A DNA stretch of 64,000 nt from the NCBI GenBank assembly GCA_903845125.1, contig CAIMWS010000344.1, positions 24,290-88,289 on the forward strand, given 5' to 3'. Position numbers and translations under genes: made by a program. The notes beneath the pieces are model-generated. The model worked only from the letters and a program-made list of their open reading frames with translations, was not told the DNA's origin and searched no databases. Source of the stretch: an uncultured Verrucomicrobiota bacterium (GTDB taxonomy: Bacteria; Verrucomicrobiota; Verrucomicrobiia; Limisphaerales; UBA1319). Below, in pieces: positions 31,222 through 55,579 of the stretch (within the stretch, counting starts at the first letter, position 1; each line of letters starts with the position of its first letter).

Positions 31222-33636
31222 ATGAAATCAGGTGTCAGACAAAAGGCTTGCTGCGCATCAGTGATGGTGATGGTCTTTTGCACGGTGCAAACAACCGCCC
31301 AAACCAAAACGGTGGTCATTGGCTGGAACGACCTGGGCATGCATTGTATGGATGGCCGGGACGAGTCCGTTTTTTCCCTGCTGCCACCCTTTAACACGAT
31401 TCACGCGCAGGTGATCCAGGATGGCAAGTTGGCCACCGGCACGAACAGCCTGGCGGCCACCTATGAAGCGGTGGCTGACCCGCAGGGATCCATCAACACC
31501 ACCTCCCAGGGGAAGGTGAATTTCTGGAATTTTGCGCCGGTTCTGTTCGGCACGAACCTGGCGCCGGACCTGGGATTGGGCGGTTACGCGATGCCGGGCC
31601 CCGGCAACCACCCGCAAAAAATGGGTTTCAGTTCCGCCCTCAAATGGTTCTCGGCCGAAGGCATCCCGATCGTGCCCTACGATGACGCCGGGCAAAATAA
31701 CCCCTACCCGATGCTGCGGCTCACGGCCCGCAACGCCGCCGGGACCGGCCTGGCCCAGGCGGACATCGTGCTCCCCGTCTCGGACGAGATGGATTGCCGT
31801 ACCTGCCATCAATCCGGCGCTTCGCCCGAAGCCAAACCAAGGGGAGGCTGGGCATGGCACTATGACCGCCAAAAGGATTACAAACTGAATATTTTGCGCC
31901 TGCACGACGAACACCTCCAATTCTACAACTATTATGCCGGCCACCTGGCTCAGGCCGGGTACGACACCAACGGTTTGTATGCGACCGTGCAACAGGGCCA
32001 ACCGATTCTGTGCGCGCGCTGCCACCAATCCAACGCCTTGCCCGGCTCTGGCCACAGCCGGTTGACGCCGCTGACCCAGGCCATCCACAACCGCCACACC
32101 TATGTGAGCGATCCCACGACCGGCATGGTTCTGAATGCCTCCGACAACCGTTCGGCTTGCTACCGGTGTCACCCAGGTTCCGACACCCGCTGCCTGCGCG
32201 GGGCGATGGGCTCGGCGGTGGGGCCGGATGGCCGCCTGGCGATGCAATGCCAAAGCTGCCATGGCGCCATCAGCCGGGTGGCTGCGGCCAGCCGCACGGG
32301 CTGGCTGGACGAGCCGCAATGCCAGAACTGCCACACCGGTGACGCCGTCACCAACCGCGGCCTGCTGCGATACACCTCGGTTTTCGACGCCTCCAACCAG
32401 GTGCGGCAGGCGGCCAGCACCCGGTTCGCCACCCAGACCAATGTGCCATCCACCGGCTTTTCCCTCTACCGGTTCTCCCAGGGGCACGGGGGCCTGGCTT
32501 GTTCGGCGTGCCATGGGCCGCCGCACGCGGAATATCCTTCCAGCGAGCCCAACGACAATGTTCAAAGCCAGGCTCTGCAGGGGCATGGGGGCACGGTGAG
32601 CGAATGCACCGTCTGCCACCCGGCCATGCCCAACACGGCCAACGGCGGTCCCCACGGCTTGCATGCCATCGGGCAGGCCTGGGTGGGCGCGCATCCCGGT
32701 TACGCCGAGCGCAACGGCACCGCCACCTGCAAGCCTTGCCATGGCGCGGATTACCGTGGAACGGTGCTTTCGCAAGCCCTGGCGGACCGGACCTTGAGCG
32801 CCATGGGAACCAAGCGTTTCTGGCGCGGATTCCAGATCGGCTGCTACACCTGCCATAACGGACCGAGCAATGACAATGCCAACCCCAATCGGGCTCCCGC
32901 GGTCCAAAATGTCAGCCTTCAAACCACTTACAGCCAGTCAGCCACGGTGAACCTGGGCGGCACGGATGCGGATGGCAATACCCTGGTTTTCCGCATCGTC
33001 ACGCAGCCGGTTCACGGCACGGTGGGACTCTCCAACCGCGTGGCGACTTATTACCCGGAAACCGGTTACACCGGGGCCGACTCCTTCACTTTTGCGGCGC
33101 GCGACGGCTCCACGGATTCCAACCTGGGAACCGTGAATGTGACCGTGACGGCCGGGCTTTACACTTTGGAAAGCTCCGTGCTGGCTCCCACCCAGGCGGC
33201 CGCCCGGCAAATGATTCCCTTCTGGGCCAGGTTGAAAACCAGCGCCCCCTCGGTGCCGGTGGAATTCAACTGGGACTTCGGAGATAACACCGCCCCGGGC
33301 CGGGATCAGTATGCGACGCACCTTTATGCCGCCGCGGGCGTCTACCAATGGCAGTTGGTGGCCAAGGCTGGCGGCCTCTCCTCCACCAACCAGGGCACCG
33401 TGGAGGTCAGCGCGGTCCAGGATGCTCCGGTCCTCCAGGCCGACCGGCAAGGCAGCCAGTTGGTGTTAAGCTGGCCCGGATCGTTGACCGGCTTCATCCT
33501 GCAATCCACCAGCGTGCTGGGCCCGCAAGCAGCCTGGTTGCCCGCGCCTGAACCGGCGGTCCTGACCGGCGGCCAATACCGCTCGACCAATCAATTCGGC
33601 AATCAGCCCCGGTATTTCCGGCTGGCGCGGCCGTGA
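31222..33636 (+). CDS. secreted nine-haem c-type cytochrome fused to cadherin/Ig-like, PKD-like and W...FYRL modules
   Basis: 804 aa. There are nine CxxCH motifs: CRTCH, CARCH, CYRCH, CQSCH, CQNCH, CSACH, CTVCH, CKPCH and CYTCH. These are followed by DADGNTLVFRIVTQPVHGTVG...YTGADSFTFAARDGS, then FNWDFGDNTAPGRDQYATHLYAAAGVYQWQL, then ...LVLSWPG...PRYFRLARP. Confidence 0.85.
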   Translation: MKSGVRQKACCASVMVMVFCTVQTTAQTKTVVIGWNDLGMHCMDGRDESVFSLLPPFNTIHAQVIQDGKLATGTNSLAATYEAVADPQGSINTTSQGKVNFWNFAPVLFGTNLAPDLGLGGYAMPGPGNHPQKMGFSSALKWFSAEGIPIVPYDDAGQNNPYPMLRLTARNAAGTGLAQADIVLPVSDEMDCRTCHQSGASPEAKPRGGWAWHYDRQKDYKLNILRLHDEHLQFYNYYAGHLAQAGYDTNGLYATVQQGQPILCARCHQSNALPGSGHSRLTPLTQAIHNRHTYVSDPTTGMVLNASDNRSACYRCHPGSDTRCLRGAMGSAVGPDGRLAMQCQSCHGAISRVAAASRTGWLDEPQCQNCHTGDAVTNRGLLRYTSVFDASNQVRQAASTRFATQTNVPSTGFSLYRFSQGHGGLACSACHGPPHAEYPSSEPNDNVQSQALQGHGGTVSECTVCHPAMPNTANGGPHGLHAIGQAWVGAHPGYAERNGTATCKPCHGADYRGTVLSQALADRTLSAMGTKRFWRGFQIGCYTCHNGPSNDNANPNRAPAVQNVSLQTTYSQSATVNLGGTDADGNTLVFRIVTQPVHGTVGLSNRVATYYPETGYTGADSFTFAARDGSTDSNLGTVNVTVTAGLYTLESSVLAPTQAAARQMIPFWARLKTSAPSVPVEFNWDFGDNTAPGRDQYATHLYAAAGVYQWQLVAKAGGLSSTNQGTVEVSAVQDAPVLQADRQGSQLVLSWPGSLTGFILQSTSVLGPQAAWLPAPEPAVLTGGQYRSTNQFGNQPRYFRLARP

Positions 33637-42582: not shown

Positions 42583-43572
42583 TTACTTCCCTTTCTGTGC
42601 GCCCGGGTCAGTCCATCCTCGCGGCTTGTATGGCAGCCCGTGCTGGTTTATGTTCCTGCTTAACAAGGTTAAATTACTCACCAGCAAAGTAAAGTTCGAT
42701 TGCCACATCTGGTTGGTCAGCAGGCTCGCCACCACCCCCTCGCCGCCCACCAGGCTGCCCAGCAGCTGGCGCGTGTTCTGGCTGGACAAATCGAGGTTGG
42801 TGACGATGGACTCGATCTCTGGTCGGTGGTTGCGCAGCAGTTCCTCCAGCTGGGAGGCGATATACACCCCTTTGCTCGACAGCGGTGGCAGGTTGCTGAT
42901 CGCCAGGTTCAGCGCGTTGCTGTTGACGGTGATGAGGCCATCCACCTTGTCCAGGGCCAGCGGCACCTTGGCCGTCAGCACCGCGGCGTTGCTGACAATG
43001 GTGGTCAACCCCTCGAGGTTTTGGGTGGTGACCAGCATGTGGTCGATCCGCTTGACCACCCCGGTCACGCTGTTCAAAACCCCGCCGAAATCCTTGATGA
43101 GGTCCATCACGTTGCGCGCAGCGTCCTGGATGTTGAACACGCCCCGGCAATTCTTCACGACGTGGCCGGTGGTCAGCGGGCTGGTCACCACGCCATCGGC
43201 CGGCGGTTTGATCAGGATGTAGCTCTCCCCCAGGATGCCGGCAAAATCAATCGAGAATTCGTATTCGGGATAGAGGGGATACTTCCGGTTGTCATACTTG
43301 ATGGAGATCACCACGGCCTGGTCCTTCCACTCGAAATCCTGCACGAAGCCGATCCGGCACCCGGAAAGGCGCACATCCGCCCCGCGCTTCAGGTCGCCGC
43401 AATCCGTGGTGCGCAGCGAGATGGTGGCCATGCCCCAGGAAAAGACATTTTCTTTGCCGGCGAAGACCAGGATCAGGATGCCAGTCACAAACAGGCCGAA
43501 CAGCATGAAGAAGCCCACCCGAAAGGCGTGGGATTGGTCCGATTTTTGATGGTGCAGGGTGCCAGATTCCAT
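42583..43572 (-). CDS. MlaD/MCE-domain protein (third MCE protein of the operon)
   Basis: ATG 43572 gives MESGTLHHQKSDQSHAFRVGFFMLFGLFVTGILILVF (TM). The MCE-like beta domain is LKRGADVRLSGCRIGFVQDF...VVISIKYD.... It has a long helical C-terminus. Confidence 0.75.
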   Translation of the reverse strand: MESGTLHHQKSDQSHAFRVGFFMLFGLFVTGILILVFAGKENVFSWGMATISLRTTDCGDLKRGADVRLSGCRIGFVQDFEWKDQAVVISIKYDNRKYPLYPEYEFSIDFAGILGESYILIKPPADGVVTSPLTTGHVVKNCRGVFNIQDAARNVMDLIKDFGGVLNSVTGVVKRIDHMLVTTQNLEGLTTIVSNAAVLTAKVPLALDKVDGLITVNSNALNLAISNLPPLSSKGVYIASQLEELLRNHRPEIESIVTNLDLSSQNTRQLLGSLVGGEGVVASLLTNQMWQSNFTLLVSNLTLLSRNINQHGLPYKPRGWTDPGAQKGK

Positions 43573-43576
43573 AGGT

Positions 43577-44389
43577 TTACTCGTTTTCTTCTTTATATCG
43601 CCGCAAATATTCCAGGATTTCAGGCTGGTTGGAGGACAGGAATTCCTCCACGGTCCCGTCGAAAATAAGGTTGCTCGCCGCCGGATCCCGGCAATCCTCC
43701 GGCTGCACACCCTTCAGCATCAGCACCCGGTTGCGGATCCGCTTCAGGGTCCGCACGTCGTGGGTGATCACGATCGAAGTGGGCTTCTTTTTCTCCCAGA
43801 CCCGCAGGATCAGGTCGTCGATCACGTTGGAATAGACCGGATCCAGCTCGGAGGTGGGTTCGTCATAGAGCAGGATCTTGGGCGAGGCCACAATGGCCCG
43901 GGCCAGGCCCACCCGCTTGCGCATTCCCCCGGAAAGCTCCGCCGGCTTTTTGTCGTGGTCGCGGACATCCTCCAGCCCCACCATGGCCAGGGCCTCCACG
44001 GCGAGTTGATCGATCTCCGCCGGCGCCAGCAGCCCCTCCCGCTGCAGCCGGAAGCTCACGTTGCCCTTGACCGTCAAGTAATCGATCAACGCCCCCCCCT
44101 GGAAGAGCACGCCGAAATTCTTCTGCACCTCCAGCAGCTCGCGGTCATCGAGTTCCCCGAGGCTTTTATCGGCGATCCGCACCTCGCCGTGGTCCGGTCT
44201 CTCCAGGCCCACCAGGTGGCGCAGCAGCACGCTTTTGCCGCAGCCGCTGTTGCCGACGATGGCCAGGATTTCCCCCGGGCGCACGTTGAAGGAGACCTGG
44301 TGCAGCACCGGTTTGGCGCCGAACGCTTTCGTCAGGCGGTCGACGGCTAGGTTGTGGCAGGCAAAAGGTGCGGGTCCGGTCATGGCCAT
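43577..44389 (-). CDS. ABC transporter ATP-binding protein (MlaF-like)
   Basis: Walker A is GNSGCGKSVLLRHL, the signature is LSGGMRKRVGLARAI and Walker B is ILLYDEPTSELD. It has a ~50-aa C-terminal extension. Confidence 0.9.
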   Translation of the reverse strand: MAMTGPAPFACHNLAVDRLTKAFGAKPVLHQVSFNVRPGEILAIVGNSGCGKSVLLRHLVGLERPDHGEVRIADKSLGELDDRELLEVQKNFGVLFQGGALIDYLTVKGNVSFRLQREGLLAPAEIDQLAVEALAMVGLEDVRDHDKKPAELSGGMRKRVGLARAIVASPKILLYDEPTSELDPVYSNVIDDLILRVWEKKKPTSIVITHDVRTLKRIRNRVLMLKGVQPEDCRDPAASNLIFDGTVEEFLSSNQPEILEYLRRYKEENE

Positions 44390-44395
44390 AAGCGC

Positions 44396-45157
44396 TTAAA
44401 ACACGTTGACGAGGTTCTTGAGGCACAGGGTCAGGAAAAAATTCGAGATCAGGATCGCGATCGAGGCGGTGACCACCGATTCGGTGGTGGATATGCCCAC
44501 CCCCTCAGCGCTTTTTTCGCAATGCATTCCTTTGTAGCAGCTGATCGAGGAGATCAAGGCCCCGAAGAAAACCGACTTGATGAAGCCGATCAATACGTGG
44601 CCCATGTGGGTGTAGCGGATCATGTTGTAGTAGGCGTAGAAAAAGTTCATGCCCAGGATCGCCGATCCTGCCACAAAGCCGGCGATGATCCCCAGGGAAA
44701 TCGATTCCGCCACCAGGATGGGGGAGACGGCCATGGTGGCCACCACGCGGGGTGCCACCAGGTAATCGAAAGGATGGGTGCCCAAGGTGCGGAGCGCGTC
44801 GATCTGGTGGTTGGCGTTCATGGTCCCCAAGTGGGCCGTGATGGACGCCCCCACCCGGCCAGCCATCATCAGGGCTGTCAGCACCGGGCCCAGTTCAGTG
44901 CACATGGCCACCCCCACGACTGCCATGGAGGCGCTCTCCATCTTCAGCTTCTCGAATTGCAGGTAGGTCTGCGCGCAGAGCACCATGCCGGTGAACGCTC
45001 CGGTGATCATGATCACCGACTGGGATTTGACCCCCAGGTGGAACATCTGCTTGATGATCTCGGTTTTTTCGCGGGCGAGTTTGAGATGGAAAAAGGAGCT
45101 GAAGATCTGCCTCACAAAGATCATCAATTTCCCCAGTTCGACAATCATGGTCCTCAT
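44396..45157 (-). CDS. ABC transporter permease (MlaE family)
   Basis: 253 aa. Typical MlaE segments are ITGAFTGMVLCAQTY, ELGPVLTALMMAGRVGASITA, ANHQIDALRTLGTHP and LVAPRVVA. Confidence 0.9.
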   Translation of the reverse strand: MRTMIVELGKLMIFVRQIFSSFFHLKLAREKTEIIKQMFHLGVKSQSVIMITGAFTGMVLCAQTYLQFEKLKMESASMAVVGVAMCTELGPVLTALMMAGRVGASITAHLGTMNANHQIDALRTLGTHPFDYLVAPRVVATMAVSPILVAESISLGIIAGFVAGSAILGMNFFYAYYNMIRYTHMGHVLIGFIKSVFFGALISSISCYKGMHCEKSAEGVGISTTESVVTASIAILISNFFLTLCLKNLVNVF

Positions 45158-46191
45158 GGTTTGGATTTTCGGTTCTCCTTCAGTTCGGGATTGAATGCCA
45201 GGCCAAACTGGGTCATCCGCGCGTTAAAACACTGCAGCTGGCGGCTCATGAATTTGAACTCGCTCCGGAATGGTTTGTTGTACATAAACAGGCCCGCCAG
45301 GCCGCGGCCCGTGCGCAGGGATTTCCGCGCCTGCGCCAGCAAAAGCTCGCCCTGGCCCAAACTGCGCTGGATGGAGTCCACCGCCTCCTTGACCGGTTCC
45401 GCCAGGCTCTGGAATTCCCGGGCCACCAGGGCCAGGTGGTTGGTCAGCCGCCGGTAATTTTCCAGCGTGGCTTGCACGTGGGCTTCATTGGCCTGCCCCA
45501 CCTCCGAGGCATGCGCCTTTAATTCACCCAACTCCCCACCGATCCGCTCCAGGTTGGTTTTGATCAGGCTGGCATCCCGGGTGACCTGCGGCGACGCCAG
45601 CGTGGCGCTGACCTTGCGCGTGGTGATGCCCAGCAGTTTCCCGGCCTGGCTGAAGCCTGCCAGGTAGCCGGAGACCTCCCCGAAGATATTGCCCATCTCC
45701 AGCGACGCCTGCCCATAAACATTGTCGCTGTTCTTCAGGAATGCCTTGGGCACCCGCGGGGGGCTGATCGACACCACCTGGTCCGCCAGCAAATTGACCT
45801 TGTCGATCGAAAATATGGCATTGGTGGGGATCAGGATGCGGCCGGCGGTGTCGAATGGATCCTGGATGACGGTGATGCCCACGAGGTTGTTGGTCTGGTT
45901 CGCCGCGGGGATCCGGCAGTATTTCTTGAAGATCCGCAGGCGGATGACCGCCCGGGGCTGGGCGGTGTTCTGCACCGGCTGGATGTGCTCCACCCGCCCC
46001 ACCATCACGCCGCCGAACATGACCGGCGAATGCCGGGTGATGCCGCCGGTGTTGGAGGTGATGAAAGCCAGTTCGTAATTGGCGGAGGCCGACAGGTAAG
46101 TGGTGTAGCCCACTGAAACCGCCACGATGATCAGGCAGGCCACCATGAAGTTGGCGCTGAAAAACCAGCGCCTGGACTGTTCACCGGCCAT
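45154..46191 (-). CDS. MlaD/MCE-domain protein (second)
   Basis: ATG 46191 gives MAGEQSRRWFFSANFMVACLIIVAVSVGY (TM). The MCE-like region is ITRHSPVMFGGVMVGRVEHIQPV...VIRLRI. It has a long helical C-terminus. ATGA overlap with mlaE-like start. Confidence 0.75.
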   Translation of the reverse strand: MAGEQSRRWFFSANFMVACLIIVAVSVGYTTYLSASANYELAFITSNTGGITRHSPVMFGGVMVGRVEHIQPVQNTAQPRAVIRLRIFKKYCRIPAANQTNNLVGITVIQDPFDTAGRILIPTNAIFSIDKVNLLADQVVSISPPRVPKAFLKNSDNVYGQASLEMGNIFGEVSGYLAGFSQAGKLLGITTRKVSATLASPQVTRDASLIKTNLERIGGELGELKAHASEVGQANEAHVQATLENYRRLTNHLALVAREFQSLAEPVKEAVDSIQRSLGQGELLLAQARKSLRTGRGLAGLFMYNKPFRSEFKFMSRQLQCFNARMTQFGLAFNPELKENRKSKP

Positions 46192-47149
46192 GGCAATCCT
46201 TGCATTCGGATTTGGGTTTTTGCCGCCCCGCCAGGAAGTTTTCCACACCGGCCACCGAGCTGCGCAGGCGGTCCTCCCATTGCTGGCGGTTAGTGATGTC
46301 GCACGCCAGCGTTCGCAAAGCCTCCGAAGCCGCCACCTTGCGGGTGGTTTCCAGGACGCTCACGGCCAGGTTGGAAGCGCCGCCCACCGGTTGGTCGATC
46401 CGCTCCCACTGGCCGCCCGCCAGCTGGTTGGACAGGGAGGCGACCGTTTTCGGAAGTCCGCTAATGGTGGCGGTGAGATTGGATCCGTGGGCATCGGGCC
46501 AGGCCAGCCATTGTTCCGCCTGGTGGAAGGCCCCGGTGGGGCTGGACCAATGCTTGATCATGCCGGAGATGGCTGCAATGGATTGGGTGGACACCAGGGG
46601 GATTTTTTCGATGGATTCCGGGGCCCACTGGTTGGTGCTTTTCCGGTAGCGATGCAGCGCTTCATTGATCCGGCGTCCCATGTCCGAAAAGCTCACCGGC
46701 TCGAGGCAGGGGACCGTTTCGGCATCCACCAGCAGGCGCGATCCCATGTGGCCGGGGGTCACGTTGACCACCTGGTCTCCCAGCAACCCTTCCGGCAGCA
46801 CCGCAAACGCCGAGTTGGCCCCAATGTCAAACTGCCGTTCGATTTTCACCTTGATCTGGATGCGGTTTTGGATCTCGTTCCAGATCAGGCGGTCCACCCA
46901 GCCAATTTTGACGCCCGATAAACGGACCTCGGATCGGGCCGGGACCAGCGTGCCGGCATTGGCCGTCTGCAGGTTCAGTTCGTAGGTGTCGAAATTATAA
47001 TGGGCCGGATTGGTGAAAAACCAGGCGAGCGCGATGATCAGGCTGAAACCGAAAATCCCAAACGCCAGCACTGCCCGCGTGAAGGCGGCCAGGCTTGGCG
47101 GCTTCGCTCCGGCCGCCCTTTGGATTTGAGTCGCCGGCCTCAAAATCAT
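46181..47149 (-). CDS. MlaD/MCE-domain protein (first)
   Basis: The TM is AFTRAVLAFGIFGFSLIIALAWFF. The MCE-like region is LVPARSEVRLSGVKIGWVDRLIWNEIQNRIQIKVKIE. It overlaps the next MCE gene by 11 nt. Confidence 0.75.
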   Translation of the reverse strand: MILRPATQIQRAAGAKPPSLAAFTRAVLAFGIFGFSLIIALAWFFTNPAHYNFDTYELNLQTANAGTLVPARSEVRLSGVKIGWVDRLIWNEIQNRIQIKVKIERQFDIGANSAFAVLPEGLLGDQVVNVTPGHMGSRLLVDAETVPCLEPVSFSDMGRRINEALHRYRKSTNQWAPESIEKIPLVSTQSIAAISGMIKHWSSPTGAFHQAEQWLAWPDAHGSNLTATISGLPKTVASLSNQLAGGQWERIDQPVGGASNLAVSVLETTRKVAASEALRTLACDITNRQQWEDRLRSSVAGVENFLAGRQKPKSECKDCHGR

Positions 47150-49205: not shown

Positions 49206-50309
49206 TTACTTGGGATTGCCCAGGAATTCCGGCAGATGGAATTCCTTGCCCTCGACGATGTGATCGATGGCGCTGGTAACCTGCGGGCTGGATATGGCCT
49301 GGATGCGCGCTGGCGGATAACCGATGGAGGCGAAATCCACCAGGCTCCCTTGCGCCCGGTGGCAGTCCGTGCAGTGCAACGTGGGATTGCGCCGCTGCGG
49401 GTGAATCTGCTGAAGCAGCTGTTTTTTCTGCTCTTCACCCAGGGCATTGCGCTGGCTCAGAAAATCCCGCACCGCCGATTCATTTCCGGTATTCCTTAAG
49501 AACGGCTTCCGGGCGCCGGCCTCCAGCAAGGCCAGCTTGGCGCCATATTCTCCACGGAAATGCCCTTGGACTGCATCGCGGGTCACCTTGACCAGGCGGC
49601 GGAATTCATCGCTGGTGACGCGAACCGCCGCCAGGTGCTCCGCCAGGGCGGAGAGCTCGGTTTCCCCGTGGGCCTCGGTGGAGGCGGCCCGGAGCAGCCG
49701 CACGATGCCGGCCTGGTCCTGCACCGTGAAATTCGTGGCGCCGCGCGTGGCCGGGCTCGTCAGCCATTCAAAAGCCCGCAGCAAGGATGGGGCTTCAGTG
49801 AGCGTCTTGCCCGACTTCAAATCATACCAGGCCAGCGCCAGTGGTTTCTGGTCCGTACGCACATGGCACACTCCGCAATGCAGGCTGGTGGCGTGCATGT
49901 TCAGGAAGGCCCGGTCGGCCTTGTTCTTGCCGTGCGGCAGGGGATCGTGGCATTGGCTGATGGTGCACCCGTTCAGCCGGTCGCTCTGGAAGCCTTCGTC
50001 CAACCGGTGATAATGAGAGAGCGGGCTGCGCCGGTTCGCGGCGGTGGTTCCCGCCGCGGCGGCGGTTTCCGGGCGCAGCAGGACCGATTCGCTGAGCCGG
50101 GTGGGAACGTCCGTGATCCGGGCGGGCGGGCGGGCGGGCAGCATCAAGGAGGAAATGAGATAATAGCAGGCCTGGCCGCTCAGGCCGAGGATGATCGTGA
50201 TCAGCAGCAAAGCGTAACAGCGTTTGCCCAGGCCCCAGAGCAGCCGGCCCGCCAGCGCCAGGGCGCCGCCGGTCTTCCCCGGATTGTTGGATCCAGCGTC
50301 GTGGCTCAT
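49206..50309 (-). CDS. membrane-anchored c-type cytochrome (two CxxCH plus one Cx4CH motif)
   Basis: The TM is CYALLLITIILGLSGQACYYLISSL. Motifs are CTISQCH (Cx4CH), CGVCH and CTDCH. ATGA overlap with the upstream multihaem/cyt b gene. Confidence 0.75.
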   Translation of the reverse strand: MSHDAGSNNPGKTGGALALAGRLLWGLGKRCYALLLITIILGLSGQACYYLISSLMLPARPPARITDVPTRLSESVLLRPETAAAAGTTAANRRSPLSHYHRLDEGFQSDRLNGCTISQCHDPLPHGKNKADRAFLNMHATSLHCGVCHVRTDQKPLALAWYDLKSGKTLTEAPSLLRAFEWLTSPATRGATNFTVQDQAGIVRLLRAASTEAHGETELSALAEHLAAVRVTSDEFRRLVKVTRDAVQGHFRGEYGAKLALLEAGARKPFLRNTGNESAVRDFLSQRNALGEEQKKQLLQQIHPQRRNPTLHCTDCHRAQGSLVDFASIGYPPARIQAISSPQVTSAIDHIVEGKEFHLPEFLGNPK

Positions 50310-52246
50310 ATGGAAGCCTCCTCCCGTTCGCCATCTTCGGTGATGCCCAGCGACCTGGCTACCTCCCGCACCTGGTCGGAATGCCCTTCGCTCATTTCGG
50401 CCACGGGCGTGTCGCCGGTGATGGTCGCCAGCGACAAGGGGAATACGTTCGGCGCGAGCATGACGTTGACAATGTGCAGGATGCCCACATGAATGATCGC
50501 CAGAAACGCCTCAAAGGTGTGCGCGATCAAGGCGAAATTCAGCACGCGGCCCGAGAGGAAATGCGAGCTGATTTCGGCACCCCAGAGCATGAATCCGGTG
50601 GCGCCCAGCAGCACGGTGCCCCAGAAGACCCCGATGTACTCAAATTTTTCCTTGATGCTGAAGCGTCCGAAAGTGGGCCGTTCCTTGCGCAGGTGCAGCA
50701 GGTGGGCCAGTAGTTGGACAAAATCGAGGACATCGCGCGGGCCAATCCACAGCGGCAGGGAGATGACGGATTGGATCCAGCTCACCGGCCGGCCGGCGCG
50801 GGCTTCGAACCGCCGCTTCAGATACATGGTCGCCAGGATGTAAACGCCATGCCCGGCCAGCCCGGCCACGAGCAATACCCCGCCCCAGTGGTGGATCATG
50901 CGGGCCACGTTCAGGCCGCCGAAGCTGTCGATCAGGAACCGCGACCATTCCCGGTCGGCAAATTTCAGCGGGAACCCCGTCAGCACCAGCAGGGTGAACA
51001 GGATGGCCAGGAACCAATGCTGCAGCCGCTGGGCGATGGTGAAGCGCATCAGCCGTTTCCGGCCCTCGGGATGCGCCAGCACCGCGCGGGTGAGATGCTC
51101 CATGCGCCGATCGTGGTGGTGCGCCCAGCCTACGACCTGGGGGAATAGCTCGAGCACGCAGATCGCCATGGATGGCCCGAAGGTGGCGATGGTCAGCAGG
51201 ATGAAGGCCGCCGCCAGCCAGAACTCCATGGTTCCCCGGATGGAGGGCAGGTCCAAATGCACGCCCGCGGCTCCCAGGGGGGCGTCCGCCCCCGGATGGC
51301 AGGCCGCATTGCGGCAGGTGTCCGCCACGCGCACCGAGCTTACCGAAGAGGCCGGGTTCTCCGGCTTGAGCATGAGGTGGGCATTGGCGCCCGGGGCGAT
51401 GTGGCAGGAGAGGCAGTTCGCCGTTTTTTCGTCGCCCAACAGGGCGGCCTTGCCGTGGAAGCTGAGGATGTAGCTGCTCACGGAATCCTTCATTTTGAAT
51501 TGGTCGCGCACCGCCGGATCGCTGTGGCAAACGGAGCAGACCTGGGCCATTTCCAGGGTCGGCCGCGCGGTTTGCAGGCGGGCGGCCATATGCCGCAGGT
51601 AATAGGCGGTATCGGCTGGCGTTTGCCGCTGGTGGCAAACATCGCAGCGGTCGTAAGTCCGCGTCCCCAATTCCTTCAGCACCGGGATCGAGCCGGTGGG
51701 ATCCCGGAAAACCGGCTCATCGTGGCAAAAAAGGCATTTCGACTGCCCCGAGCCTAGCAACCGCCCTTTGATCTCCCCGACTTTCTTCAGCACCTCGCTG
51801 GTGTGAACCCCTTTTTCCATCATCTCCGCCACATTGCGGTGGCTGAAGCGCTGCTCCGTTACCCCGGGTGTGCCCACATGGCAATTCTTGGTGCAATCGA
51901 CTTTGGAAATCGTCTTGTGGGGCACCACGGCCACCTCGCTACGCTCGTGGCAATCGGTGCAGGATATCACCGCGTGCGGCCCCAGGCGCTGGTGGACATA
52001 TTCCGGCTGCACGAAGAACACGTGGGAGACATCGTTGCTATAGTTGAAATAGCTTAGACCGCGGTATTGGTGGCAGAAAAGGCAGTTATCCGGGTCATCC
52101 GCGCGGGCCGGAGAGGCCGCGCACCAGAGGAATATCACCCCGGCCAGTGCCCGCATCAAGCCGCGCAACAGCCCCTGCCCCAGTGGTTTGCTCCGTCCAG
52201 ACCTCATGCGCGCAACTTCTGAAACCCATGGCTTTGGCGCCAGCAT
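50306..52246 (-). CDS. multihaem c-type cytochrome domain fused to a membrane di-haem cytochrome b (FdnI/HydC-like) domain; CbcL-like architecture
   Basis: The N-terminal periplasmic half has CLFCH, CTDCH, CTKNCH (Cx3CH), CLFCH, CDVCH, CSVCH, CLSCH and CRNAACH (Cx4CH). The C-terminal half has ~5 TM helices with conserved His (QRLQHWFLAILF, ARMIHHWGGVLL, LIAHTFEAFLAIIHVGILH). The start may instead be an internal Met (52207). Confidence 0.85.
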   Translation of the reverse strand: MLAPKPWVSEVARMRSGRSKPLGQGLLRGLMRALAGVIFLWCAASPARADDPDNCLFCHQYRGLSYFNYSNDVSHVFFVQPEYVHQRLGPHAVISCTDCHERSEVAVVPHKTISKVDCTKNCHVGTPGVTEQRFSHRNVAEMMEKGVHTSEVLKKVGEIKGRLLGSGQSKCLFCHDEPVFRDPTGSIPVLKELGTRTYDRCDVCHQRQTPADTAYYLRHMAARLQTARPTLEMAQVCSVCHSDPAVRDQFKMKDSVSSYILSFHGKAALLGDEKTANCLSCHIAPGANAHLMLKPENPASSVSSVRVADTCRNAACHPGADAPLGAAGVHLDLPSIRGTMEFWLAAAFILLTIATFGPSMAICVLELFPQVVGWAHHHDRRMEHLTRAVLAHPEGRKRLMRFTIAQRLQHWFLAILFTLLVLTGFPLKFADREWSRFLIDSFGGLNVARMIHHWGGVLLVAGLAGHGVYILATMYLKRRFEARAGRPVSWIQSVISLPLWIGPRDVLDFVQLLAHLLHLRKERPTFGRFSIKEKFEYIGVFWGTVLLGATGFMLWGAEISSHFLSGRVLNFALIAHTFEAFLAIIHVGILHIVNVMLAPNVFPLSLATITGDTPVAEMSEGHSDQVREVARSLGITEDGEREEASI

Positions 52247-54514: not shown

Positions 54515-54541
54515 TAAAGGGTTTTTCCAGGCTGCCGATAA
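54515..54541 (+). promoter_or_regulatory. sigma-28 (FliA)-type promoter of the flagellin gene
   Basis: TAAA (54515-54518), then exactly 15 nt, then GCCGATAA (54534-54541). This is a full match to the TAAA-N15-GCCGATAA class. It is located ~140 nt upstream of the flagellin ATG. Confidence 0.7.
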
Positions 54542-54622
54542 TAATGGCGTAACTAGGGTTGCCAGCCACCCGAAAGAGCTGGCGAGGAACAATGGCGGAC
54601 GCCTCCAAGAATGGTTCGCCAC

Positions 54623-54677
54623 GCGGCATGGATGCCGCAAGAAAAAAACCCCGCAAGGGGGACTCATGGAAGGAGTC
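54623..54677 (+). promoter_or_regulatory. two GGA-loop hairpins in the flagellin 5' leader, the second covering the Shine-Dalgarno; CsrA-binding-site-like
   Basis: Hairpin 1 is GCGGCA-UGGA-UGCCGC (54623-54638). Hairpin 2 is GACUC-AUGGAAG-GAGUC (54661-54677) and contains the AAGGAG SD, 3 nt before ATG 54681. Both present CAUGGA. Confidence 0.45.
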
Positions 54678-54680
54678 GTT

Positions 54681-55511
54681 ATGGTTATCAATACAAATAC
54701 ATCTGCCGCCAGCTCAGCCCGCCTGCTCAATGATTCGTCTGTCAAACTGTCCAAATCGCTTGCCCGTTTGTCTTCGGGATCCCGCATCGTCTCCCCGGAA
54801 GATGACGCCGGCGGCATGGCCGTTTCCCTGCGGTTCGACGCCCAGATCAACCGCATCCGCGCGGCCAGCTCCAATGTCAGCAACGCGGTGGCCTACAGCC
54901 AGACCCAGGACGGTTTCCTCGGCCGGGTGCAGACTGCCCTGGACCGCATGAGCGAGCTGTCCGTGCTCTCCCAGGACATCACCAAAACGGACACGGACCG
55001 CCAGAAATACGACACGGAATTCAGCACCCTCAAGGATTACATCCTCAACATCGGCAGCAAGAATTTCAACGGGGTCTCCCTGTTCGACGGAGCCGCCCGG
55101 GAAGTGACCATCGACAGCGACAACGGCGTTTCCACCGCCACCGGCCAGAGCTGGAACATGTCCGGCGTGAGCCTCGGTTCCACCTCCTATTCCAGCGCCA
55201 TCGCCAGCACGGTGAGCGTGAGCACGGCGGCTTCGGCCAAATCCGCGCTGGACCTCGTGCAGACCGCCATCAACCAGCTGGCCACGGATCGGGCCCAAGT
55301 GGGGGCCAATATTTCCCGGCTGAACCATACGAACACACAATTAGCCGTTCTGAAAGACAACATGGCCTCCGCCAACAGCCGCATCAAGGATGTGAACGTG
55401 GCGGAGGAAAGCACTGAATTTGCCCGGTATAACATCCTGGTACAGGCGGGGACTTCGATGCTGGCGCAAGCCAACTCCAGCGCGCAGTCCGCCCTGAGAC
55501 TGCTCCAATAA
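54681..55511 (+). CDS. fliC: flagellin
   Basis: ATG 54681 follows AAGGAG. The N-terminus is MVINTNTSAASSARLLNDSSVKLSKSLARLSSGSRIVSPEDDAGGMAVS. The C-terminus is ...RAQVGANISRLNHTNTQLAVLKDNMASANSRIKDVNVAEESTEFARYNILVQAGTSMLAQANSSAQSALRLLQ. These are the canonical D0/D1 flagellin termini. The upstream part of track ORF 54351 is leader. Confidence 0.9.
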   Translation: MVINTNTSAASSARLLNDSSVKLSKSLARLSSGSRIVSPEDDAGGMAVSLRFDAQINRIRAASSNVSNAVAYSQTQDGFLGRVQTALDRMSELSVLSQDITKTDTDRQKYDTEFSTLKDYILNIGSKNFNGVSLFDGAAREVTIDSDNGVSTATGQSWNMSGVSLGSTSYSSAIASTVSVSTAASAKSALDLVQTAINQLATDRAQVGANISRLNHTNTQLAVLKDNMASANSRIKDVNVAEESTEFARYNILVQAGTSMLAQANSSAQSALRLLQ

Positions 55512-55548: not shown

Positions 55549-55579
55549 GGCGGCGCGGGTGCGCCGCCGATTGCTTTTT
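55549..55579 (+). terminator. Rho-independent terminator of the flagellin gene
   Basis: GGCGGCGC gggt GCGCCGCC (8-bp GC stem) is followed by gattgcTTTTT, 38 nt after the stop codon. Confidence 0.7.

What the first reader, a model, noticed from the sequence alone, without database searches (positions are those of the whole stretch)
54515..54681. Lone flagellin gene with a perfect sigma-28 promoter and two CAUGGA hairpins in a ~130-nt leader (hag-like CsrA/FliW checkpoint signature)
Seen in the sequence:
- TAAA-N15-GCCGATAA lies at 54515-54541.
- Downstream, GCGGCA-UGGA-UGCCGC (54623-54638) and GACUC-AUGGAAG-GAGUC (54661-54677) each display GGA in a loop.
- The second hairpin engulfs the AAGGAG Shine-Dalgarno, 3 nt before the ATG.
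- A strong terminator follows the gene (55549-55579).
- No other flagellar gene is in the 64 kb.

Established knowledge: in Bacillus subtilis hag mRNA, CsrA binds two GGA sites, one of which overlaps the SD. FliW/flagellin partner-switching relieves the repression.

Inference: the same post-transcriptional checkpoint may operate here. That would be notable for this lineage, and it is directly testable.
Basis: partly seen in the sequence, partly recalled or inferred. Interest (0 to 1): 0.55.

Follow-up and report, generated by a model that had tools for sequence, protein, structure and literature searches.

The report
Flagellin mRNA leader with CsrA-type hairpins
In front of a flagellin gene of a Verrucomicrobiota bacterium lie a perfect sigma-28 promoter and a ~130-nt folded mRNA leader that is conserved across the phylum. 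Its two GGA hairpins (one covering the ribosome-binding site) match the CsrA/FliW flagellin checkpoint known from Bacillus and Campylobacter, and they follow a pair of pseudoknots that matches no Rfam family.

Summary
The window comes from a Verrucomicrobiota genome. Positions 54681-55511 encode a 276-aa flagellin, the only flagellar gene found in the 64 kb.

An exact TAAA-N15-GCCGATAA sigma-28 motif (none in 100 shuffles) precedes a ~131-nt leader. A covariance model finds 57 distinct copies of this leader on 41 Verrucomicrobiota contigs, nearly all directly before flagellin genes.

Both GGA hairpins are conserved with compensatory changes:
- H1 displays CANGGA(Y/A)G in 54/57 copies, which I recognise as the high-affinity CsrA/RsmE motif.
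- H2 displays the GGA of the Shine-Dalgarno.

fliW-csrA(-flagellin) operons occur in relatives, once on the same contig as a leader-bearing flagellin. The hag/flaA-like CsrA-FliW reading is therefore supported. csrA could not be searched for in this genome itself, and binding is untested.

Each of their four helices shows covariation in an alignment that was not fitted to it. No Rfam family matches.

Some relatives carry 'orphan' leader copies with no flagellin ORF.

Verdict: a known mechanism in a phylum where it has not been studied, with an undescribed extra RNA domain. Moderately interesting.

The parts
54515..54541 (+). Sigma-28 (FliA)-type promoter: -35 TAAA (54515-18), 15-nt spacer, -10 GCCGATAA (54534-41)
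   Evidence: Read. Exact match is unique in the window, 0/100 shuffles. A >=10/12 match at the equivalent position occurs in 33/57 related leaders and >=9/12 in 44/57.
54549..54680 (+). Predicted 5' UTR (~131 nt). The start at ~54549 is inferred from the usual ~8-nt distance between the -10 element and the TSS.
   Evidence: Inference from the promoter geometry. Covariance models R1 and R2 score 54534-54686 at 100.5 and 83.5 bits. No Rfam family matches.
54556..54583 (+). Pseudoknot 1: helix a GGGU 54556-59 / ACCC 54568-71, crossing helix b GCCAGC 54561-66 / GCUGGC 54578-83. Loops are 1, 1 and 6 nt (the last A-rich).
   Evidence: Pairs verified. Helix a: 85.5% of cells paired, 3/4 pairs changed on both sides, in alignment A3, whose model did not contain it. 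Helix b: 76.4% paired, 4/5 pairs, in A4, whose model did not contain it. Variants listed: AGGC/GCCU, AAGC/GCUU, UGGC/GCCA; UCGUGA/UCACGG, GCGAUA/UAUCGC.
54584..54620 (+). Pseudoknot 2: helix c GAGG 54584-87 / CCUC 54602-05, crossing helix d GGCGGAC 54594-600 / GUUCGCC 54614-20
   Evidence: Helix c: 82.7% paired in A3, not fitted; variants CAGG/CCUG, CGGG/CCCG, GGGG/CCCC, GUGG/CCAC. Helix d: 69.6% paired with 7/7 pairs changed on both sides in A4, not fitted. Pairing with own partner beats pairing with other sequences' partners: fully paired 0.81 vs 0.48 (c) and 0.53 vs 0.08 (d).
54623..54638 (+). Hairpin H1, GCGGCA-UGGA-UGCCGC; GGA at 54630-32. Proposed upstream high-affinity CsrA site.
   Evidence: About 90% of cells paired, 5/6 pairs with changes on both sides. 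Core CANGGA(Y/A)G in 54/57 leaders.
54639..54660 (+). A-rich spacer (54639-48) and clade-specific hairpin hC, CCCC-GCAA-GGGG (54649-60), abutting H2
   Evidence: Present only in the long-leader clade, with stem variants (CUCC/GGAG, UCCC/GGGA, GCCCC/GGGGC) visible. The same bases read on the minus strand look like a terminator.
54661..54677 (+). Hairpin H2, GACUC-AUGGAAG-GAGUC; GGA at 54668-70 and 54672-74; SD AAGGAG at 54670-75. Proposed CsrA site that occludes the ribosome-binding site.
   Evidence: A homologous hairpin is seen in most of the 57 leaders (GACAA-AUGGAG-UUGUC, UACAA-AUGGAG-UUGUA, GACGAA-AGGA-UUCGUC); no GGA-loop hairpin was found for 6, which still keep the GGAAGGA-type sequence. 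85-88% paired, 3-4 of 5 pairs changed on both sides. The last GGA lies 8-15 nt before the AUG in nearly all copies (extremes 6 and the frameshifted L049).
54681..55511 (+). Flagellin gene (276 aa, short D0/D1-type flagellin)
   Evidence: Pfam Flagellin_N and Flagellin_C. 95% identical to the syntenic MAG locus L002.
55549..55579 (+). Intrinsic terminator: 8 G-C pairs, GGGU loop, U-rich tail

Best explanation
This is a monocistronic late-class flagellin gene of a Verrucomicrobiota bacterium.

Proposed mechanism:
1. RNA polymerase carrying a sigma-28 (FliA)-type sigma factor starts at about 54549 and ends at the terminator at 55549-55579.
2. The ~131-nt leader folds into two modules.
3. The 3' module (H1 at 54623-38, H2 at 54661-77) is a CsrA operator of the hag/flaA type. 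One CsrA dimer binds the GGA in the H1 loop and the GGA/Shine-Dalgarno in H2, 38-42 nt away, and blocks 30S binding.
4. FliW that is free of flagellin binds CsrA and lifts the block. Unexported flagellin recaptures FliW. Flagellin synthesis is thereby matched to export.
5. The 5' module (54556-54620) is two tandem H-type pseudoknots beginning a few nucleotides after the predicted 5' end. Its most likely role is a 5'-terminal fold that stabilises this very abundant mRNA and/or holds the operator hairpins in a defined geometry.

Shown here: the promoter motif, the gene, the terminator, conservation and covariation of all helices, and fliW-csrA operons in relatives.

Inferred: the TSS, CsrA binding, FliW antagonism, and the role of the pseudoknots.
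For: - Promoter: exact consensus, unique in the window, 0/100 shuffles. Recurs at the same offset in most of the 57 related leaders.
- Gene and terminator.
- Leader family: R1 finds 58 copies at E<=1e-6 (57 distinct) on 41 contigs, nearly all ending at the ATG of a full-length flagellin.
- Structure counts: 82% of cells paired versus 34-44% when partners are slid; covariation score 0.38 versus 0.06-0.16; 0/500 shuffles reach it. The MAFFT-only alignment shows the same trend.
- H1 core CANGGA(Y/A)G in 54/57 copies; the last GGA is 8-15 nt from the AUG in nearly all; H1-to-SD GGA spacing is 22-57 nt.
- C. jejuni flaA has the same logic: two stem-loops with ANGGA in the loops, the second covering the RBS, supported there by compensatory changes (PMC4894983). 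B. subtilis CsrA binds two GGA stem-loops in the hag leader (PMC13443453; PMC6529632).
- fliW-csrA operons in relatives: L003 and L016 (Pfam FliW 1e-35/8e-34, CsrA 2e-23/2e-24) and L055-L062. 771 FliW homologues at E<=1e-20, several named Verrucomicrobia by their sources.
- The L003 proteins match the solved FliW-CsrA complex 5DMB and B. subtilis CsrA 1T3O.
- L003 has fliW-csrA and a flagellin with the window-type leader (12/12 promoter, same GGGU/ACCC helix) on one contig.
- In L003 the RBS of csrA itself lies in a GGCA-AGGA-UGCC hairpin identical to the H1 core.
Against: - csrA, fliW, fliA and flgM were not found in the window. The rest of this genome could not be searched. The only exact hit elsewhere is a 1351-bp contig, and FliW look-ups did not reach the closest MAG.
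- No binding, TSS or expression data exist.
- For 6 of 57 leaders no GGA-loop hairpin was found near the SD, although the GGAAGGA-type sequence is kept.
- Within the window's own clade the H2 stem is nearly invariant, so its covariation comes from comparison between clades.
- The pseudoknot helices a and c are only 4 bp and fairly conserved. Their own-partner versus cross-partner contrast is modest for helix a (0.67 vs 0.51 fully paired).
- The two covariance-model alignments leave the window-type register of helix c and of H2 off by 1-4 columns. Those were therefore judged with a shift-tolerant script.
- Related sequences can exceed the shuffle controls without any structure (a caveat stated by the tool).
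Confidence: 0.75

Rival explanations
1. The leader is a structured element that works without CsrA. H2 occludes the SD on its own (intrinsic or temperature-dependent translational control). H1 and the pseudoknots serve only mRNA stability, or bind some other protein.
For: The leader is strongly structured (z = -3.2). H2 traps the SD in nearly all copies. No csrA is seen in the window. The 5' domain has no evident link to CsrA (helix c is conserved for pairing, not for GGA).
Against: The H1 loop sequence CANGGA(Y/A)G is invariant in 54/57 copies while its stem varies. That pattern is typical of a protein-recognition loop and coincides with the CsrA/RsmE consensus (my knowledge; ANGGA per PMC4894983). 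fliW-csrA operons are present throughout the relatives.
Confidence: 0.14
2. The 5' double-pseudoknot domain is a ligand- or signal-sensing aptamer (riboswitch-like, for example for a motility-related second messenger). It controls the downstream hairpins, with CsrA secondary or absent.
For: Compact pseudoknots with A-rich loops, conserved across a phylum, directly upstream of an SD-sequestering hairpin. No known family matches.
Against: No alternative pairing between the 5' domain and H1/H2 is evident in the alignments. Few unpaired positions are strongly conserved apart from GCCU and the A-runs. No hit to any riboswitch family even at E<=10. The single predicted long-range helix (5' end with the start codon) does not appear conserved on inspection of relatives such as L001.
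Confidence: 0.07
3. The hC hairpin plus A-run (54639-54660) is really a minus-strand intrinsic terminator (CCCCUUGCGGGG followed by a U-run). The rest of the pattern is coincidence.
For: The scan lists a terminator-like site on the minus strand at 54665-54646.
Against: No minus-strand gene ends there. The hairpin sits inside a leader that is conserved on the plus strand and scored by a plus-strand model. hC is absent from half the family while H1 and H2 persist.
Confidence: 0.02

Closest known systems
Bacillus subtilis hag leader with the CsrA-FliW-Hag partner switch
   Same: A sigma-28-class (SigD) flagellin gene. The leader has two GGA stem-loops, one overlapping the SD (PMC13443453, PMC6529632). 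fliW lies next to csrA, and CsrA carries a C-terminal extension. The L003 CsrA aligns with B. subtilis CsrA 1T3O at E = 2e-15.
   Different: The phylum is Verrucomicrobiota. The leader is longer and begins with two conserved pseudoknots. In relatives fliW-csrA is followed by a second, leaderless flagellin and preceded by a sigma-54-type promoter. Nothing has been tested biochemically.
Campylobacter jejuni flaA 5' UTR (SL1/SL2) and the CsrA-FliW network
   Same: Two stem-loops with ANGGA in the loops, the second covering the RBS, supported by compensatory changes (PMC4894983). A sigma-28 major flagellin exists alongside a sigma-54 flagellin (the flaA/flaB sigma assignment is from my knowledge).
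   Different: The flaA UTR is only 45 nt and has no 5' pseudoknot domain. Here the spacing between the sites is 22-57 nt, and a clade-specific extra hairpin (hC) can intervene.
Class 3 sigma-28 promoters of enteric bacteria (e.g. fliC), consensus TAAA-N15-GCCGATAA
   Same: Identical consensus and spacing, upstream of the filament gene.
   Different: The enteric fliC gene is not regulated through FliW, according to the papers read. Here fliA and flgM were not located.
CsrB/RsmY/RsmZ-type CsrA-sequestering sRNAs
   Same: Relevant only to the 'orphan' leader copies in L013, L039 and L009, which keep both GGA hairpins but have no flagellin ORF.
   Different: The orphans hold just the two leader GGA hairpins. 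GGA is not enriched in the rest of the unit, so they are not multi-site sponges.
H-type RNA pseudoknots with A-rich third loops (as in viral frameshift signals and the SAM-II and preQ1-II aptamers)
   Same: The crossing order S1-5', S2-5', S1-3', S2-3'. A short first loop and an A-rich last loop.
   Different: No sequence or model similarity to any Rfam family. Two pseudoknots lie in tandem at the 5' end of a flagellin mRNA. Their function is unknown.

Membership tests
Sigma-28 (FliA)-dependent late flagellar promoter | -35 TAAA and -10 GCCGATAA separated by 15 nt | tested here: met
   12/12 match at 54515-54541
Sigma-28 (FliA)-dependent late flagellar promoter | Located upstream of a late flagellar gene and conserved at orthologous positions | tested here: met
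   Flagellin downstream. >=10/12 in 33/57 and >=9/12 in 44/57 related leaders, with the -10 element ending 103-157 nt before the ATG. One sub-clade (L009, L013, L039) lacks a good match.
Sigma-28 (FliA)-dependent late flagellar promoter | fliA (and flgM) encoded in the genome; TSS ~8 nt after the -10 element | not tested
   Neither gene was looked for outside the window. A TSS needs 5' RACE or dRNA-seq.
CsrA-repressed mRNA leader (hag/flaA type) | Two or more GGA motifs displayed in hairpin loops | tested here: met
   H1 and H2. Both are conserved with compensatory changes.
CsrA-repressed mRNA leader (hag/flaA type) | One GGA site overlaps the Shine-Dalgarno sequence | tested here: met
   GGA at 54668-70 and 54672-74 within or next to AAGGAG 54670-75. 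The last GGA lies 8-15 nt before the AUG in nearly all copies.
CsrA-repressed mRNA leader (hag/flaA type) | Loop sequence fits the A(N)GGA / CANGGANG recognition motif | tested here: met
   CANGGA(Y/A)G in 54/57 H1 copies. ANGGA motif per PMC4894983.
CsrA-repressed mRNA leader (hag/flaA type) | csrA present in the same genome | tested here: inconclusive
   Absent from the 64-kb window, and the rest of the genome is not available. Present in relatives, once on the same contig as a homologous leader (L003).
CsrA-repressed mRNA leader (hag/flaA type) | CsrA binds the leader and blocks ribosome binding | not testable with these tools
   Needs EMSA, footprinting or toeprinting.
FliW-CsrA-flagellin partner switch | fliW encoded next to a csrA with a C-terminal extension | tested here: met
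   Met in relatives only: L003, L016, L055-L062, with CsrA of 79-106 aa. Homology to the solved complex 5DMB. Not testable for the window's own genome.
FliW-CsrA-flagellin partner switch | FliW binds flagellin and CsrA alternately | not testable with these tools
   Needs pull-downs or genetics.
Any described RNA family (Rfam 15) | Match at or near a family's gathering score | tested here: not met
   No hit in the window or in six related loci at gathering score. Best hits in the leader at E<=10 score 10-16 bits against cut-offs of 44-70.
H-type pseudoknot | Two helices in crossing order, each supported by covariation | tested here: met
   Helices a and c are supported in A3, which was fitted only to b, d, H1, H2. 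Helices b and d are supported in A4, which was fitted only to a, c, H1, H2. The crossing order is verified in the window.
H-type pseudoknot | Both helices form at the same time in the RNA | not testable with these tools
   Needs chemical probing or a structure. Alternating conformers are not excluded.
CsrB/RsmZ-type sponge RNA (for the orphan leaders in relatives) | Many GGA hairpins in one non-coding RNA | tested here: not met
   GGA counts in the ~560-nt units are 14-17 versus 12-13 expected. Only the two leader hairpins are present.

The most novel reading that the evidence does not exclude
Verrucomicrobiota flagellin mRNAs carry a previously undescribed, phylum-wide structured leader: two tandem 5' pseudoknots fused to a CsrA operator. 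In some genomes, leader-only copies (followed by a 3-codon ORF and a terminator, in tandem ~555-nt units) are expressed as small RNAs. These would mimic the flagellin mRNA and titrate CsrA or whatever factor recognises the pseudoknots. That would be an mRNA-derived decoy layer on top of the FliW switch.
Probability: 0.35. Interest if true: 0.65.

Novelty: new variant of a known kind. Interest (0 to 1): 0.45.

Why it matters
The CsrA-FliW-flagellin homeostasis module is thought to be the ancestral job of CsrA. It has been dissected only in Firmicutes, Campylobacterota and spirochaetes.

This work supplies a clear, covarying operator signature and fliW-csrA operons in Verrucomicrobiota. That extends the module to the PVC superphylum and offers about 57 natural sequence variants of a CsrA operator for testing recognition rules.

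The conserved double pseudoknot at the 5' end is a candidate new RNA motif. Its role in mRNA stability, localisation or regulation can be tested directly.

The sigma-54 (operonic, leaderless) versus sigma-28 (stand-alone, leader-bearing) split of flagellins parallels Campylobacter flaB/flaA. This suggests an old division of labour between the two flagellin classes.

Tried and rejected
- Rfam. Gathering-score scan of the window, permissive scan of the leader, and gathering-score scan of six related loci. The leader matched no family.
- csrA/fliW in the window's own genome. An exact-protein look-up of the flagellin found only a 1351-bp JGI contig. Six FliW homologues were traced to their contigs, and none belonged to the syntenic MAG CAYPCQ01.
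- Long-range helix. The MFE fold closes the leader by pairing CGUAAC (54548-53) with GUUAUG at the start codon. On inspection it does not appear conserved in relatives such as L001, so it was dropped.
- GGA motifs in the 5' domain as extra CsrA sites. Rejected, because helix c keeps its pairing (CAGG/CCUG, CGGG/CCCG) in sequences that have no GGA there.
- Orphan leaders as CsrB-like multi-GGA sponges. GGA is not enriched outside the leader. RNAalifold on the region downstream of the orphans gave no convincing structure (-1 kcal/mol, no compensatory pair).
- Register problems. A second model (R2), meant to bring helix c and H2 of the window clade into register, did not do so. Those helices were judged with shift-tolerant scripts instead.
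- Literature. A search for CsrA/FliW work on Verrucomicrobia returned only an incidental mention. Mukherjee et al. 2011 is not held in the library.
Full report
OBSERVATION

- TAAA lies at 54515-18 and GCCGATAA at 54534-41, 15 nt apart.
- GCGGCA-UGGA-UGCCGC lies at 54623-38.
- GACUC-AUGGAAG-GAGUC lies at 54661-77, with AAGGAG at 54670-75 and the ATG at 54681.
- A G+C-rich terminator lies at 55549-79.

The ORF 54681-55511 is a 276-aa flagellin (Pfam Flagellin_N and Flagellin_C). The exact promoter motif occurs once in the window and in none of 100 shuffles. Hairpins displaying GGA occur at 0.71 per kb per strand, so about 0.09 are expected in the leader and two are found. The leader folds better than its shuffles (z = -3.2).

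About 55 other ORFs in the window give no flagellar Pfam family. Six-frame phmmer finds no CsrA or FliW in the window. The flagellin is therefore alone within these 64 kb.

ORGANISM AND RELATIVES

A scan of representative genomes with the flagellin returned 53 loci. Almost all are titled Verrucomicrobiota, Verrucomicrobiia, Limisphaerales or Pedosphaera MAGs. L002 is 95% identical and syntenic with the window (UvrD-like helicase, flagellin, DUF4404, GYF-domain protein). That MAG has two more flagellin loci, L001 and L049. 'Lone' is thus a local statement.

THE LEADER IS A CONSERVED RNA FAMILY

The 130 nt upstream of nearly every flagellin in these loci show the same layout. A covariance model built on a MAFFT alignment finds 58 copies at E<=1e-6 (57 distinct) on 41 contigs and only one in the window. 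Nearly all end at the ATG of a full-length flagellin, and many loci have two or three tandem flagellins, each with its own leader. A sigma-28-like motif scoring >=10/12 lies at the equivalent position in 33/57 leaders and >=9/12 in 44/57. Rfam 15 has no matching family.

THE TWO GGA HAIRPINS

H1 is paired in ~90% of cells, and 5 of its 6 pairs show changes on both sides. Examples are GCGGCA/UGCCGC, GGUGAC/GUCACC, CCGACA/UGUCGG and GCAGCA/UGCUGC. Its loop core stays CANGGA(Y/A)G in 54/57 copies. From my own knowledge, CANGGANG is the high-affinity CsrA/RsmE hairpin motif. PMC4894983 reports ANGGA in 324/328 C. jejuni CsrA targets.

H2 is homologous across clades once aligned by its stems. Forms include GACUC-AUGGAAG-GAGUC (window clade), GACAA-AUGGAG-UUGUC, UACAA-AUGGAG-UUGUA and GACGAA-AGGA-UUCGUC. 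It is 85-88% paired, with 3-4 of 5 pairs changed on both sides. For six leaders no GGA-loop hairpin was found near the SD, but they keep the GGAAGGA-type sequence. The last GGA lies 8-15 nt before the AUG in nearly all copies, which is where a Shine-Dalgarno sits. The spacing from the H1 GGA is 22-57 nt, and 38-42 nt in the window.

csrA AND fliW IN THE LINEAGE

Two loci carry fliW-csrA directly upstream of a flagellin: L003 and L016 (Pfam FliW and CsrA). In L003 the same contig also carries, 8 kb downstream, a flagellin with a leader of the window's type. That leader has a 12/12 promoter, the same GGGU/ACCC helix, and the same H2 and hC.

A protein search with the L003 FliW gives 771 homologues at E<=1e-20, several named Verrucomicrobia by their sources. 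Six of them traced to contigs all sit in fliW-csrA pairs, usually followed by a flagellin gene or fragment, often next to flgK/flgL or other flagellar genes. The L003 proteins match the solved FliW-CsrA complex 5DMB and B. subtilis CsrA 1T3O.

I could not test the window's own genome. The flagellin's only exact match elsewhere is a 1351-bp contig.

The 5' half of the leader (54556-54620) is as conserved as the hairpins. In the window it reads as two crossing helix pairs:
- helix a, GGGU 54556-59 / ACCC 54568-71, crossing helix b, GCCAGC 54561-66 / GCUGGC 54578-83;
- helix c, GAGG 54584-87 / CCUC 54602-05, crossing helix d, GGCGGAC 54594-600 / GUUCGCC 54614-20.

All pairs were verified. These are two H-type pseudoknots in tandem, with short first loops and A-rich last loops.

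To limit circularity I used two alignments.
- A3 was fitted to b, d, H1 and H2 only. In it the unfitted helices a and c are 85.5% and 82.7% paired, with 3/4 and 2/4 pairs changed on both sides.
- A4 was fitted to a, c, H1 and H2 only. In it the unfitted helices b and d are 76.4% and 69.6% paired, with 4/5 and 7/7 pairs changed on both sides.

Overall, 82% of cells pair against 34-44% when the partners are slid. The covariation score is 0.38 against 0.06-0.16, and no shuffle in 500 reaches it.

A shift-tolerant script lists the variants:
- helix a: AGGC/GCCU, AAGC/GCUU, UGGC/GCCA, CGGC/GCCG;
- helix b: UCGUGA/UCACGG, GCGAUA/UAUCGC, CCGGGA/UCCCGG;
- helix c: CAGG/CCUG, CGGG/CCCG, GGGG/CCCC, GUGG/CCAC.

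Pairing each 5' strand with its own 3' strand beats pairing it with other sequences' 3' strands for every helix. The margin is modest for helix a.

Caveats:
- Helices a and c are short.
- The sequences are related, which inflates the shuffle controls.
- The window-clade register of helix c and H2 is off in both model alignments.
- Simultaneous formation of the crossing helices cannot be shown in silico.

MECHANISM

Best-supported reading, confidence about 0.75.
1. A sigma-28-type holoenzyme transcribes a monocistronic flagellin mRNA from ~54549 to the terminator.
2. A CsrA dimer bridges the GGA of H1 and the GGA/SD of H2 and blocks initiation.
3. FliW released from exported flagellin antagonises CsrA.

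This is the logic described for B. subtilis hag and C. jejuni flaA (PMC6529632, PMC4894983, PMC7652899). The pseudoknots start a few nucleotides after the predicted 5' end. In the short-leader clade they start right at it. They would most simply act as a 5'-terminal stabiliser or folding scaffold, but that role is inference only.

Rivals are a CsrA-independent structured leader (0.14), a riboswitch-like 5' domain (0.07) and an antisense terminator reading of hC (0.02).

COMPARISON AND NOVELTY

The 3' module meets every sequence-level criterion of a hag/flaA-type CsrA operator. The genome-level criterion (csrA present) is met only in relatives, and binding is untested. The system is regarded as ancestral and widespread (PMC13443453, PMC4894983), so finding it in Verrucomicrobiota is a new member rather than a surprise. 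A full-text search found no work on it in this phylum.

The double pseudoknot has no counterpart in the hag or flaA leaders as described in the papers read, and none in Rfam. Hence 'new variant of a known kind'.

SIDE OBSERVATIONS

- Orphan leaders. In L013 (four copies), L039 and L009 the leader is followed by ATG AGT CCA TAG/TAA (MSP*; L009 has MVT*). About 300 nt without a flagellin ORF follow. In L013 these form tandem ~555-nt units that end in a terminator-like hairpin. They are not GGA-rich beyond the leader and show no clear downstream structure. A decoy role is speculative.
- Two flagellin classes. The fliW-csrA-flagellin operons have sigma-54-type promoters (L055 CTGGCACGCCCGTTGCT, L016 TTGGCACAGCCAGTGCT). 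Their flagellin has no leader and no obvious SD. This suggests two flagellin classes, as with Campylobacter flaB/flaA.
- Possible autoregulation. In L003 the RBS of csrA lies in a GGCA-AGGA-UGCC hairpin identical to the H1 core.

Noticed in passing
L013 4135-4257, 4683-4818, 5239-5378, 7921-8038; L039 8237-8361; L009 9112-9238: 'Orphan' copies of the flagellin leader (both GGA hairpins and mostly both pseudoknots intact). Each is followed by a 3-codon ORF (ATG AGT CCA TAG/TAA; MVT* in L009) and ~300 nt with no flagellin ORF. In L013 they form tandem ~555-nt units ending in a terminator-like hairpin (CUUCGG-AGCGAACG-CCGAAG + UGUUUUAU). They may be leader-mimic sRNAs or decayed duplications. GGA is not enriched downstream, and RNAalifold support is weak.
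   Followed up: partly
L055 5960-5978; L016 9221-9238: Sigma-54-type promoters (TGGCAC-N5-TTGC / GTGC) directly upstream of the fliW-csrA-flagellin operons of relatives. The flagellin after csrA has no structured leader (no R1 hit) and no obvious SD (AAAUCCUAUGG, AAAACCCUAUGG). This gives two flagellin classes: operonic/sigma-54 and stand-alone/sigma-28 with leader.
   Followed up: partly
L003 470-488: The ribosome-binding site of csrA itself lies in a GGCA-AGGA-UGCC hairpin identical to the H1 core, 4 nt before the ATG. This hints that CsrA represses its own translation. It is not seen in L016, where csrA follows fliW closely.
   Followed up: partly
L049 9805-9950 and downstream: In the MAG closest to the window, a third flagellin locus keeps a good leader (79 bits, 12/12 promoter). 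Its ORF stops after 43 codons, its H2 GGA is mutated (CAAAGAAGG) and no GGA-loop hairpin was found near its SD. It is probably a decaying paralogue or an assembly frameshift.
   Followed up: no
window 54646-54665, minus strand: Read on the minus strand, the hC hairpin plus A-run looks like an intrinsic terminator (stem, then a U-run). No minus-strand gene ends there. An A-rich tract before hC recurs in the long-leader clade.
   Followed up: partly
window 54548-54553 with 54678-54683: The MFE fold pairs CGUAAC at the predicted 5' end with GUUAUG, which includes the start codon. On inspection the pairing is not conserved in relatives such as L001, so it was not included in the model.
   Followed up: yes
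L010 (titled Cytophagales MAG) and L045 (titled Poseidoniales archaeon MAG): Contigs binned to non-verrucomicrobial organisms carry verrucomicrobial-type flagellins. L010 also carries two copies of the leader. These are probably binning errors.
   Followed up: no
window 31222-33636 (+) and 50306-52246 (-): Large multihaem cytochrome-like proteins (MtrC/MtrF-like and cytochrome c7 hits, one fused to a cytochrome b561-type membrane domain). These suggest extracellular or periplasmic electron-transfer capacity in this verrucomicrobium.
   Followed up: no
window 42583-47149 (-): An Mla-like ABC transporter cluster with three MlaD-domain genes, MlaE and an ATPase, preceded by a PIN-domain protein.
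   Followed up: no
L009 1376-1497 (-): A SAM-I riboswitch (79 bits) in a related MAG contig. It is unrelated to the finding.
   Followed up: no
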